From Mycobacteriales bacterium (GTDB lineage Bacteria; Actinomycetota; Actinomycetes; DATLTS01), in contig DATLTS010000041.1 in NCBI GenBank assembly GCA_035533475.1, positions 1,070-65,069 on the forward strand: 64,000 bases of DNA, read 5' to 3'. Below the pieces are notes generated by a model that had not been told where the DNA came from, did not search any database, and saw only the letters and a list, made by a program, of their open reading frames with translations. Shown piece by piece: positions 37,688 to 39,403 of the stretch. Positions within the stretch are counted from its first letter, which is position 1, and the number at the start of each line of letters is the position of its first letter. The position numbers were made by a program, and so were the translations under genes.

Positions 37688-38536
37688 TCACGTGACGAAC
37701 TCGGGCTCCACCCCGGCCGGGACGACGCCGCGGGCCGCGGCCCTCCGGGCGAACTCGGCGAGCCCCGCCAGTTGGCGCGGCCCCAAGGAGAAGTCGAGCG
37801 TCCGGAAGTACCTGGCGAGCGTGGCAGCGTCGAAGTCCTCCCAGCGCGCCGCTCCGGCGGCGACCTCATCAACCCGGTCGAGCGATAAATCGCGGGACCT
37901 GATGAATCCCTCGTGGACCTCCTTGACCAACCCGGGGTGCCCCGCGGCGAATTCGCGCCGGGCCGCCCACACCGCGAAGACCATGGGCAGGCCGGTCCAG
38001 TCCCGCCAGGCCCCGCCGAGATCGTGCACCGCCAACCCGAGCCGGGGGCCGTCCACGAAAGTCGCCCGCAACGCCACGTCGCCGATAAGAACTGCCGCCC
38101 GGGCCTCCTGCATCATCGGCCCGAGCTCCGGGGGGCAGCTGAAGTAGCGAGGGCGCACCGAGTGGCGCTCCTCCAAGAGCATCGCGGCGAGCAAGACGCT
38201 CGTCCGACTGGTCGAGCCGAGCGCGACCGGCTCACCACCCAACTCGGCGAGCGGCAGCTGACTCACCAGGTTGACCGAGAGCACAGGCCCATCGCTGCCG
38301 ACCGCGAGATCCGGCAGGAGCAGCAGGTCGTCGGCGTGCCGCAGGTACTCGACGAGGCTGATCGGACCAATATCGAGTCGGCCGGCGACTAGGTCCTCAC
38401 CGAGCCGTTCCGGGCTGTCCTTGGTGAGCTCGATGTCGAGCAACGCGCCGGAATGCACCAGTCCCCAGTAGATGGGCAGGCAGTTGAGGAACTGAATATG
38501 TCCCACGCGAGGTCGTCCAGTGATGCGCTCGCTCAT
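37688..38536 (-). CDS. mqnA: MqnA/MqnD-family menaquinone (futalosine pathway) biosynthesis protein, likely chorismate dehydratase MqnA
   Basis: 282 aa with N-terminus [17 protein letters not shown], the pattern recalled for MqnA-family periplasmic-binding-like proteins. Confidence 0.6.
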
Positions 38537-39123
38537 CGGCGAAACCGCAGGCCGCTAAGGGGAAAGTGGGATGCAAGCCGTGTCATCGAATGACCGCTCA
38601 ACTCCGTTGTTGACCGTGGTTCTGTGGTCCAAAGTGGTCCACGATCTTGGCTGTCCACAGCCTACGGCGAGTGGTCCGAGAAGGTCGCGGCGGGTGGCCA
38701 CCGTTCGAGCCGTTGCCGGCTTGGAGAGGAGCGTGCCGTGAGTCGACCAAGCGGGATTCGCCGCCTGGTACGGGATCCGCCGCCGGGTACGGGCCACGGG
38801 GGCCGTCTACGAGGTTCGCTGCCGCGATCTGGGGTCTAATCGCAAGCCCAGGGCGGCATCGAGGAAGACTTCGAGCGTGAGACCGACGCCCGGCGCTGGT
38901 CCGACTAGACGCCTAGTCGCGCGGGCTGCTCGGGGGTCGGCGTGGGGCGGTGTACGCGGCGCGACGCGCGGCCGTAGTGCCTCACTCATGGGTGTCCGGA
39001 TCGGGTCGTTTCCTCACTGAGACGTCCGGATGCGCGCGGGGGCTTCACCTCCTACTGACCCCGGGTGTTCTTCGTACTGACGAGGTCTACCAGACGCTGC
39101 TGGCAGGCGATGATGTCCCGCAG

Positions 39124-39220
39124 CTGGGGTGCGGCGGGCGAGGCGGGCGAGGTAAATGAGGCGGGCGAGGCGGCGCCCAGCCGGCCCCAACCGGCCCCAA
39201 CCGGCCCCAACCGGCCCCAG
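39124..39220. repeat. short tandem repeat tract: 9-bp unit GCGGGCGAG (about 3 copies) then 10-bp unit CCGGCCCCAA (about 5 copies)
   Basis: Direct reading: ggcgggcgag gcgggcgag gtaaatgag gcgggcgag ... ccggccccaa x4 followed by ccggccccag. A 10-bp period is incompatible with coding. Confidence 0.8.
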
Positions 39221-39227
39221 CCGTCGG

Positions 39228-39295
39228 CGAGTGTGCAATTTCCGACCGAGGGCACGCTCACGGACGGGTACGGGGCGTCGGAAATTGCACACTCG
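39228..39295. repeat. perfect 19-bp inverted repeat separated by 30 bp
   Basis: Left arm cgagtgtgcaatttccgac (39228-39246) is the exact reverse complement of the right arm gtcggaaattgcacactcg (39277-39295). Confidence 0.85.
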
Positions 39296-39355
39296 GGGGT
39301 AAGCGGCGGCGCCTGGGCACACATCCGAGCCGACGCTCGGCCTTGACAACAGGCG

Positions 39356-39403
39356 GTTGAGGAACTGAATGTGCCCGACCCGGGGCCGCGCCGAGGAACT
39401 CAC
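39356..39403 (-). pseudogene. remnant of an MqnA/MqnD-like N-terminus (codes [11 protein letters not shown], then degenerates)
   Basis: 33 nt (39356-39388) match 38484-38516 inside mqnA at 27/33 positions; all six mismatches fall at period-3 (codon third) positions and are synonymous, so the encoded peptide is identical. Confidence 0.5.

What the first reader, a model, noticed from the sequence alone, without database searches (positions are those of the whole stretch)
38484..39403. Codon-conserved remnant of an MqnA/MqnD-like N-terminus 0.87 kb upstream of mqnA
A 33-nt stretch at 39356-39388 matches 38484-38516 inside mqnA with six mismatches, all at period-3 positions and all synonymous on the minus strand, so both encode [11 protein letters not shown]. 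That pattern indicates divergence under protein-level selection rather than a recent DNA duplication: the upstream copy is the surviving start of a paralog (MqnA and MqnD are homologous) whose remainder was lost or replaced by the repeat-rich spacer.
Basis: seen in the sequence. Interest (0 to 1): 0.45.

Follow-up and report, generated by a model that had tools for sequence, protein, structure and literature searches.

The report
Stranded original start of mqnA
A short leftover of the original beginning of the menaquinone gene mqnA sits 0.87 kb upstream of the working gene, a scar of a past DNA insertion or replacement that gave the gene a new start; it is an ordinary evolutionary relic, not a new system.

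Summary
The repeat is real. Window 39350-39388 matches 38477-38515 (39 nt, 82%, offset 873 = 3x291, same frame, minus strand). All six mismatches inside [11 protein letters not shown] are synonymous third positions. The upstream copy is an 18-codon mqnA start, [20 protein letters not shown] (39403->39350). It matches the 5' ends of mqnA orthologues better (up to 95% over 40 nt) than it matches the resident gene.

It lies 50 nt behind a YbjQ gene pair. In two syntenic relatives (L086, L118), intact mqnA starts 26-30 nt behind the same pair. No other mqnA locus examined (80 species-representative loci plus five further relatives) has a second copy. So the stub is the stranded original gene start, not an MqnD-like paralogue and not a conserved leader.

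An 873-bp segment separates it from the gene body: 813 nt of non-coding spacer plus a new start, [15 protein letters not shown], written in atypically GC-poor codons. The likeliest cause is recombination with a diverged mqnA allele (one-sided homologous/illegitimate replacement, or a crossover in the shared 15-nt ATTCAGTTCCTCAAC). The donor and the exact topology are unresolved.

The stub's ORF is not conserved: its start is CTG in a 98.7% strain, and a 10-nt repeat-unit indel frameshifts it in another assembly. The spacer also holds one copy of a dispersed, terminator-like palindromic repeat.

Low interest; a new member of a known kind.

The parts
39350..39403 (-). Stub c2: an orphaned 18-codon mqnA start (GTG AGT TCC TCG GCG CGG CCC CGG GTC GGG CAC ATT CAG TTC CTC AAC CGC CTG = [18 protein letters not shown]). 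Homology to mqnA ends abruptly at 39350/39349.
   Evidence: GC-rich consensus codons (6/6 GC3 in RPRVGH). It sits 50 nt after the YbjQ stop, where mqnA starts in L086 and L118.
39404..39453 (-). Original YbjQ-mqnA intergenic region, with a TAGGG motif about 12 nt before the stub's GTG. It resembles the TAGG motif before mqnA in L086, L118, L087 and L088.
   Evidence: The motif was seen by eye; the alignments are not statistically significant.
38537..39349 (-). Spacer S: 813 nt of non-coding DNA of unknown origin between the stub and the functional start.
   Evidence: No Pfam hit for its ORFs. No Rfam family. No coding-type GC3 periodicity. No other copy in the window or in relatives. No plasmid or phage match.
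38477..38536 (-). c1: the present start region of mqnA (ATG AGC GAG CGC ATC ACT GGA CGA CCT CGC GTG GGA CAT ATT CAG TTC CTC AAC TGC CTG = [20 protein letters not shown]), written in atypical GC-poor codons.
   Evidence: GC3 is 0.50 in codons 2-13 against 0.88 for the rest of the gene. GC3 is 2/6 in RPRVGH, and only 1 of 82 orthologues is as low.
37688..38536 (-). Functional mqnA (chorismate dehydratase, 282 aa).
   Evidence: PF02621, E = 1.3e-74, covering 2-251 of 252 model positions. Identical or near-identical in same-species contigs L081 and L082.
39228..39295 (.). Perfect 19-nt inverted repeat (CGAGTGTGCAATTTCCGAC / GTCGGAAATTGCACACTCG) with a 30-nt loop. It is one copy of a dispersed palindromic repeat family and is terminator/REP-like.
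   Evidence: Fold energy -45.5 kcal/mol, z = -3.75. 25 further sites in related soil metagenome contigs. Mostly intergenic and often within 135 nt after a gene end.
39171..39223 (.). Tandem repeat CGGCCCCAAC x5.2, with copy-number polymorphism between assemblies.
   Evidence: L082 has one unit fewer.
39133..39173 (.). Degenerate tandem repeat GGCGGGCGA x4.6.
38752..38793 (.). 19-nt tandem repeat x2.2.
39454..40281 (-). YbjQ-domain gene (275 aa), the upstream neighbour that anchors the synteny argument.
   Evidence: PF01906. 86-89% identical to the genes directly preceding mqnA in L086 and L118.

Best explanation
**What it is.** The upstream copy is the stranded original beginning of mqnA.

**Ancestral state.** As in relatives L086 and L118, mqnA began a few tens of nucleotides behind the second YbjQ gene.

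**The event.** A recombination event joined DNA of different ancestry to the gene. An 873-bp segment now lies between codon 18 of the old start and the body of the gene. It consists of 813 nt of non-coding spacer plus a new translation start, [15 protein letters not shown].

**Origin of the two starts.** They had diverged as parts of two separate mqnA alleles under purifying selection, which is why only synonymous sites differ. They were then brought together in one of two ways:
- by a one-sided homologous / one-sided illegitimate replacement (HFIR-like) of the 5' part of the gene, or of all of it, together with the donor's upstream DNA;
- or by a single crossover inside the shared ATTCAGTTCCTCAAC.

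**Status of the stub.** It is a non-functional scar.

**Likely consequence (inferred, not shown).** mqnA is no longer translationally or transcriptionally coupled to the YbjQ genes. It is now separated from them by a terminator-like palindromic repeat and about 0.7 kb that must carry its own promoter.

**Shown:** the repeat, its MqnA identity, its syntenic position, the absence of the arrangement in relatives, the lack of coding constraint on the stub ORF, and the odd codon usage of the new start.
**Inferred:** the direction of the event, the recombination mechanism and the regulatory consequence.
For: **Repeat and significance:**

**The stub is MqnA-type.** It matches orthologues up to 95% over 40 nt, better than it matches the resident gene at 82%. 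Homology ends sharply at 39350. Nothing else in the spacer resembles MqnA.

**Empty-site relatives:**
- L086: YbjQ-YbjQ, 30 nt, then mqnA.
- L118: full synteny p540-radSAM-p128-YbjQ-YbjQ, 26 nt, then mqnA-radSAM-UbiE-FAD.
- In the window the stub's GTG is 50 nt after the YbjQ stop.
- None of the 80 species-representative loci has a second copy.

**Codon usage:**
- The stub uses the GC-rich consensus codons: 6/6 GC3, and 1 mismatch in 33 nt to the nearest orthologue.
- The present start is a compositional outlier: 2/6 GC3 in RPRVGH (1 of 82 orthologues as low), and GC3 0.50 in codons 2-13 against 0.88 for the rest of the gene.
- It adjoins the lowest-GC part of the spacer, 57-62%.

**The N-terminal extensions differ** in length and sequence: MSERITG against VSSSA.

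**The stub ORF is not constrained:**
- Its GTG is CTG in a 98.7% strain.
- A 10-nt repeat-unit indel in L082 shifts its frame.
- There is no coding GC3 pattern beyond the first 18 codons.

[quoted passage not shown] It has been invoked for displacement events that leave orphaned gene pieces (PMC5361080).
Against: - No donor was found. The spacer has no homologue in relatives, plasmids, phages or viral contigs, and no protein with an MSERITG N-terminus was recovered.
- Sliding-window comparisons show no visible mosaic breakpoint in mqnA or the downstream radical-SAM gene, because all relatives are 20-25% diverged in DNA. How much of mqnA is 'new' is therefore unknown.
- The reverse polarity cannot be formally excluded: the YbjQ module could have been imported with a hitch-hiking stub.
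- No promoter-like or Shine-Dalgarno-like sequence was detected for the new start (plus inspection).
- The low GC3 of the new start could partly be a general 5'-end effect. One neighbouring gene has GC3 0.58 in codons 2-13.
Confidence: 0.72

Rival explanations
1. Scar of a site-specific integrative element that targets the 5' end of mqnA and carries a replacement promoter and start. The two copies would be attL/attR-like, with a 15-nt identical core (ATTCAGTTCCTCAAC). The 0.8-kb spacer would be a decayed or non-autonomous remnant of the element.
For: - The topology is exactly that of integration: an imperfect direct repeat with an identical core flanks the insert, and the gene is reconstituted.
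- The copy on the insert side has foreign-looking codons.
- Both copies share the rare ATT Ile codon, found in 4 of 82 orthologues, as expected if an identical core was required.
- The upstream copy retains 5 of 6 nt (CGCCTG against TGCCTG) beyond the core.
Against: - No integrase or any Pfam-recognisable ORF lies in the spacer or among the neighbouring genes.
- At 873 bp the insert is far too small for an autonomous element.
- No other copy of the spacer exists in the window or in about 230 kb of same-community contigs; only the 75-nt hairpin recurs.
- No plasmid or phage match was found.
- No viral contig carries an mqnA 5' motif.
Confidence: 0.12
2. Reverse polarity. The present mqnA start and the spacer are native. 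The block p126-YbjQ-YbjQ was imported from an L086/L118-like donor, and the imported fragment ended 54 nt inside the donor's mqnA, so the stub is a hitch-hiking foreign fragment.
For: - Many relatives (L087, L088, L117, L001 and others) lack the YbjQ pair at this locus and have DUF4229 followed by mqnA.
- MqnA is slightly closer to L087/L088 (79-82%) than to L086/L118 (76-77%).
Against: - The backbone on both sides is as close to L118/L086 as to anything else: radSAM-up 86%, radSAM-down 83-85%.
- The whole order p5xx-radSAM-p12x-YbjQ-YbjQ ... radSAM-UbiE-FAD is shared with L118. The YbjQ-mqnA adjacency therefore looks inherited.
- It is the present start, not the stub, that has anomalous codon usage.
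Confidence: 0.08
3. One reading: the remnant of a tandem paralogue (MqnA/MqnD family) that once lay upstream of mqnA and decayed into the repeat-rich spacer.
For: Synonymous-only divergence shows that both copies once evolved as coding sequence.
Against: - The fragment is MqnA-type and occupies the orthologous mqnA start position.
- No trace of further MqnA or PF02621-like sequence exists in the spacer.
- At 813 nt the spacer is shorter than an mqnA gene plus an intergenic region.
- None of the 80 species-representative loci, nor the five further relatives whose gene content was seen, shows tandem mqnA copies.
- MqnD itself was not tested with an MqnD query sequence.
Confidence: 0.04
4. A functional upstream ORF or leader peptide, or a regulatory mimic of the mqnA start, for example for translational or attenuation control of mqnA.
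For: The stub keeps a start codon and its original ribosome-binding region in the window strain, and a stable hairpin follows it about 55 nt downstream.
Against: - It is not conserved in any relative.
- The start is CTG in the 98.7% strain L083.
- A 10-nt indel changes the frame of the 129-aa ORF in L082.
- The hairpin belongs to a genome-wide repeat family found after many unrelated genes.
- The stub lies 814 nt from the mqnA start.
Confidence: 0.03

Closest known systems
Gene stubs or orphan fragments left by homology-facilitated illegitimate recombination / gene displacement in situ (for example orphaned effector or Rhs/CDI pieces; PMC5361080; HFIR defined in PMC3240628)
   Same: - Incoming DNA anchored by homology to a conserved gene segment displaces part of the resident locus.
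- A truncated piece of the former gene is left next to the new one.
- The retained piece still shows the conserved segment used as the anchor.
   Different: - Here the gene is a housekeeping biosynthetic gene (mqnA), not a polymorphic toxin.
- It is the 5' end, not the 3' end, that is duplicated.
- The event is single rather than a clearly established array; a possible second stub is only a weak lead.
- The donor is unknown, and the mechanism is inferred from topology only.
attL/attR duplications made by integrative elements that reconstitute their target gene (tRNA or ORF-end targeting phages, ICEs and their decayed CIME-like remnants). This comparison rests on my own knowledge, not on a tool result.
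   Same: An imperfect direct repeat with an identical core flanks the inserted DNA. The element-side copy is diverged at synonymous sites and restores an intact gene.
   Different: - No integrase and no recognisable element genes.
- The insert is only 873 bp.
- No second copy of the insert anywhere searched.
- The target is a 5' end, so a promoter and start would have to be supplied.
REP / terminator-like interspersed palindromes of bacterial genomes (for the hairpin inside the spacer). This comparison rests on my own knowledge.
   Same: About 70 nt, with a perfectly conserved 19-20 nt stem. Many dispersed intergenic copies, frequently just after gene ends, sometimes in tandem (L109).
   Different: - The sequence family is not in Rfam.
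- The loop is variable in length (19-31 nt).
- Association with a RAYT-type transposase was not tested.

Membership tests
MqnA (chorismate dehydratase, PF02621) N-terminus | Conserved N-terminal motif [14 protein letters not shown] at the start of the domain | tested here: met
   The stub encodes [11 protein letters not shown], then RL in place of CL. It matches 70 of 80 orthologue 5' ends by blastn.
MqnA (chorismate dehydratase, PF02621) N-terminus | Full-length periplasmic-binding-protein-like domain (about 250 residues) | tested here: not met
   Only 18 codons are homologous. The 129-aa ORF has no Pfam hit, and tblastn finds nothing further. It is a fragment, not a gene.
The claim is indirectly disfavoured by the 95% DNA identity to mqnA orthologues and by the syntenic position.
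Integrative-element att duplication | Direct repeats with an identical core flanking the insert | tested here: met
   39-nt repeat with a 15-nt identical stretch.
Integrative-element att duplication | Recombinase gene in or beside the insert, or the same element at other sites or in other genomes | tested here: not met
   No Pfam-recognisable ORF in the spacer. Neighbouring genes are Mqn, YbjQ, a response regulator and similar. The spacer is unique. Viral scan negative.
HFIR-type replacement / gene displacement in situ | Empty-site (uninterrupted) arrangement in syntenic relatives | tested here: met
   L086 and L118: YbjQ, 26-30 nt, then intact mqnA.
HFIR-type replacement / gene displacement in situ | Abrupt non-homologous junction at one end of the foreign segment | tested here: met
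   Homology of the stub to every mqnA ends at 39350/39349.
HFIR-type replacement / gene displacement in situ | Phylogenetic or compositional evidence that the segment beyond the junction is of different ancestry; donor identified | tested here: inconclusive
   The codon usage of the new start is an outlier. No donor was found, and sliding-window and identity matrices are not decisive.
Leader peptide / regulatory uORF | Conservation of the ORF (start and frame) among strains and relatives | tested here: not met
   Absent in all relatives. GTG is CTG in L083. Frameshifting 10-nt indel in L082.
REP-like interspersed palindrome (hairpin 39228-39295) | Many dispersed copies with a conserved stem, in intergenic positions | tested here: met
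   25 further sites in three related soil metagenomes. Only the roughly 75-nt hairpin is shared. At least 14 of 24 copies lie within 135 nt of a gene end.
REP-like interspersed palindrome (hairpin 39228-39295) | Cognate RAYT/IS200-like transposase in the genome | not tested
   Only 64 kb plus the fetched loci were available.

The most novel reading that the evidence does not exclude
The 5' end of mqnA is a recurrent target for a small, non-autonomous 'start-swapping' cassette. Such a cassette would integrate by a crossover in the conserved GHIQFLN-coding core and bring its own promoter and start codon, each round stranding the previous start. A possible second stub fits this: 38989->38963, ATG AGT GAG GCA CTA CGG CCG CGC GTC = MSEALRPRV. 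It is in frame with both other starts, and the motif occurred in 0 of 5000 shuffles. It was found post hoc, however, and has no significant DNA alignment.
Probability: 0.08. Interest if true: 0.55.

Novelty: new member of a known kind. Interest (0 to 1): 0.22.

Why it matters
- It is a clean, datable example of how an essential biosynthetic gene can have its start and its upstream control region replaced without loss of function. The old start is still legible beside the new one.
- It is a reminder that short 'codon-conserved' repeats next to genes are usually recombination scars, not regulators.
- It flags an annotation trap. Gene callers start this mqnA at Val11 (272 aa) and could call the 129-aa stub ORF as a gene.
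- The by-product is probably of more general interest than the stub itself: a previously uncatalogued, terminator-like palindromic repeat family in these soil actinobacteria.

Tried and rejected
- **Rfam scan of 38300-39700:** only a sub-threshold miRNA hit, which is noise.
- **Sigma-70 promoter and intrinsic-terminator scan of the spacer:** nothing found.
- **Pfam on all spacer ORFs:** nothing found.
- **tblastx of the spacer against relatives:** only low-complexity high-GC noise.
- **Sliding-window nearest-neighbour analyses of mqnA and the downstream radical-SAM gene, to find a crossover point:** no resolution, because all relatives are 20-25% diverged.
- **Identity matrices to decide whether the whole mqnA is foreign:** the window is intermediate between the L086/L118 and L087/L088 clades. 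The only clear incongruence is L087's own radical-SAM gene.
- **Alignment of the 45 nt upstream of each start with relatives' 5' UTRs:** not significant, p = 0.1-0.98.
- **Possible third stub c3:** the peptide motif is striking, but DNA alignment to c1 and c2 is not significant, p = 0.2-0.3. It is kept only as a lead.
- **Integron-cassette idea:** considered because of the conserved-stem, variable-loop hairpin and a GTTGAGG at the repeat. Rejected because the hairpin lies 62 nt from the junction and lacks the RYYYAAC/GTTRRRY core sites.
- **Tandem-duplication idea:** rejected because the spacer shows no similarity to the DNA upstream of the stub.
- **Searches for a donor:** plasmids, phages, viral contigs and a short-query protein search were all negative.
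Full report
**1. Observation**

Reading the region and comparing the two stretches confirms a 39-nt direct repeat, 38477-38515 against 39350-39388. It is 82% identical, and the spacing is 873 nt (3 x 291), so both copies share one minus-strand frame.

The [11 protein letters not shown] codons are 38483-38515 in mqnA and 39356-39388 upstream.

The six mismatches are all third positions in RPRVGH:
- mqnA: CGA CCT CGC GTG GGA CAT
- upstream: CGG CCC CGG GTC GGG CAC

The following ATT CAG TTC CTC AAC is identical.

I call the functional start c1: ATG at 38536, [21 protein letters not shown]... 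I call the upstream fragment c2: GTG at 39403, [16 protein letters not shown], then RLLSRPS...

The match is far beyond chance. An 11-residue peptide shared with MqnA occurred in 0 of 1000 dinucleotide shuffles (longest seen: 7). The DNA local alignment score of 43 was reached in 0 of 1000 shuffles.

**2. What c2 is**

mqnA (37688-38536, minus strand) is a complete PF02621 protein (E = 1.3e-74).

c2 hits the 5' end of mqnA in most of the 80 orthologous loci fetched from species-representative genomes. Identity reaches 95% over 40 nt, which is better than its 82% to the resident gene. Homology always stops at 39350, after AAC CGC CTG.

tblastn with six MqnA proteins finds nothing else MqnA-like in 38537-39453, and no paralogue anywhere in the window. 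So c2 is an 18-codon mqnA start and nothing more.

**3. Context**

Gene order on the minus strand...radical-SAM, DUF4229, p126 (opposite strand), YbjQ, YbjQ (stop at 39454), 50 nt, c2, 813-nt spacer, mqnA, response regulator, radical-SAM, amidohydrolase, UbiE, FAD enzyme.

None of the 80 relatives has a second GHIQFLN-coding copy within 4 kb.

Contigs of the same species:
- L081 (100% identical) and L082 (99.9%) carry the same arrangement.
- L083 (98.7%) carries c2, but its contig ends at 39358, inside the shared core, so the spacer cannot be seen there.

**4. Empty-site relatives**

Homologues of the YbjQ gene led to two decisive contigs:
- L086: YbjQ-YbjQ, 30 nt, intact mqnA, radical-SAM.
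- L118 (76 kb): p540, radical-SAM, p128 (opposite strand), YbjQ, YbjQ, 26 nt, intact mqnA, radical-SAM, UbiE, FAD, nuo.

Their YbjQ is 86-89% identical to the window's. The flanking radical-SAM genes are 83-86% identical, as close as any relative.

c2 therefore sits exactly where mqnA begins in syntenic relatives. This makes it the stranded original start of the gene, not a separate paralogue.

Other relatives show that this junction is variable:
- L088 and L117 have DUF4229 followed directly by mqnA.
- L087 has a 615-aa gene in between.
- L084 and L115 have the YbjQ pair followed by UbiE, with no mqn block.

**5. Which start is the odd one**

- c2 uses the consensus GC-rich codons: 6/6 GC3 in RPRVGH, like 43 of 82 orthologues, and 1 mismatch in 33 nt to the nearest.
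- c1 has 2/6, and only 1 of 82 orthologues is as low.
- Codons 2-13 of mqnA have GC3 0.50, against 0.88 for the rest of the gene and 0.58-1.00 for twelve neighbouring genes.
- c1 adjoins the lowest-GC part of the spacer, 57-62%.
- The N-terminal extensions differ. MSERITG resembles the Micromonospora type MSERIA/MAERIA. VSSSA resembles the VTSA/VSTA types of closer relatives. Such short peptides are only a lead.
- Both copies share the rare ATT Ile codon, present in 4 of 82 orthologues.

**6. The stub is not a gene or a conserved regulator**

- The 129-aa ORF has no Pfam hit.
- It has no coding GC3 pattern past codon 18.
- Its GTG is CTG in strain L083.
- L082 lacks one 10-nt unit of the tandem repeat inside it, which shifts the frame.
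- It is absent from all relatives.

**7. The spacer**

38537-39349 has no Rfam family and no promoter or terminator consensus. It has no similarity to relatives, plasmids or phages.

It contains three tandem repeats and a perfect 19-nt inverted repeat at 39228-39295 (-45.5 kcal/mol, z = -3.75).

A metagenome scan with the two arms found 26 loci. Of these, 24 are further genuine copies in three related soil metagenomes, one is the window's own locus (L114), and one is an unrelated low-GC sequence (L096). L109 carries a second copy in tandem.

Only the roughly 75-nt hairpin is shared. Its stem is invariant and its loop is variable. Most copies are intergenic, and at least 14 of 24 lie within 135 nt downstream of a gene end.

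In the window the hairpin lies 159 nt after the YbjQ stop. This suggests that it now ends the YbjQ transcript, and that mqnA is expressed from the remaining 0.7 kb. That is an inference.

**8. Mechanism**

Every scenario that fits requires two diverged mqnA 5' ends brought together by recombination.

I favour an HFIR-like event or a crossover in the shared 15-nt core, introducing foreign upstream DNA plus a new start. Whether only the first 13 or so codons or the whole gene came with it cannot be resolved.

HFIR is homologous exchange at one end of incoming DNA and illegitimate joining at the other (PMC3240628). It has been proposed for displacement events that leave orphaned gene pieces (PMC5361080).

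Rivals:
- An att-type scar of an integrative element has the same topology but no recombinase, no other copy and no viral or plasmid trace.
- The reverse polarity, with the YbjQ block imported together with a hitch-hiking stub, is disfavoured by the shared synteny with L118 and by the codon anomaly lying in c1.
- A decayed tandem paralogue and a leader peptide are disfavoured by sections 2, 4 and 6.

**9. Verdict**

The feature is an evolutionary scar of a known kind, of low general interest.

A possible third stub (38989->38963, MSEALRPRV, in frame with the other two, 0 of 5000 shuffles, but no significant DNA alignment) keeps open a small chance that starts were replaced repeatedly at this gene.

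Noticed in passing
window 39228-39295; loci L089-L114 (e.g. L105:5141-5197, L109:3539-3614 and 3647-3721): A dispersed palindromic repeat family. The stem CGAGTGTGCAATTTCCGAC is invariant (19-20 nt). The loop is variable (19-31 nt) and often contains CACGCT or GAGCGTG. Copies are often flanked by short G- or C-rich tandem repeats. 24 further loci in three related soil metagenomes carry it (25 copies, L109 having two in tandem). Copies are mostly intergenic and commonly just downstream of gene ends. The family is not in Rfam. It looks like a REP/terminator-like element of these actinobacteria.
   Followed up: partly
window 38963-38989 (minus strand): ATG AGT GAG GCA CTA CGG CCG CGC GTC encodes MSEALRPRV, resembling the present mqnA start [11 protein letters not shown]. 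It is in frame with both c1 (453 nt away) and c2 (414 nt away). The motif MSE.{1,4}RPRV occurred in 0 of 5000 shuffles. However, DNA alignment to c1 and c2 is not significant, and the match was found post hoc. It could be a second, older stub or a coincidence.
   Followed up: partly
window 39171-39223 vs L082:~7060: The 10-nt tandem repeat (CGGCCCCAAC) differs by one unit between the window and an otherwise 99.9% identical assembly. This is copy-number polymorphism or assembly slippage.
   Followed up: yes
window 38504-38536; protein P0121: Public gene calls start this mqnA at the GTG of Val11 (272 aa) instead of the ATG at 38536 (282 aa), cutting off the conserved RPR. No obvious Shine-Dalgarno sequence precedes the ATG.
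   Followed up: no
L083:1836 (= window 39403): In a 98.7% identical strain the stub's GTG start is CTG. That contig ends at 39358, inside the shared 15-nt core.
   Followed up: partly
window 37224-37625; L086, L087, L088, L117, L118: A single-domain response-regulator gene sits between mqnA and the downstream radical-SAM gene in the window, L087, L088, L003 and L012, but only about 46% identical to those of L087/L088. It is absent in L086, L117 and L118. This is a second variable insertion point in the same mqn cluster.
   Followed up: partly
L084:5001-6529; L115:1473-2697: In two Mycobacteriales-like contigs the same p12x-YbjQ-YbjQ module is followed directly by the UbiE/MenG methyltransferase, with no mqnA, radical-SAM or amidohydrolase block. 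The futalosine genes are therefore present or absent as a block at this locus.
   Followed up: no
L087:5427-6599: L087's downstream radical-SAM gene is only 74-76% identical to the window's, while its upstream radical-SAM gene (86%) and MqnA (79-82%) are among the closest. This is a phylogenetic incongruence that looks specific to L087.
   Followed up: partly
window 39413-39417; L086:~1816; L118:~4987; L087:~3987; L088:~3987: A short YTAGG/CTAG motif lies about 12 nt upstream of the mqnA start in several relatives and upstream of the stub. A TTAGCGG lies 23 nt upstream of the present start. It may be part of the ribosome-binding region. The alignments are not significant.
   Followed up: partly
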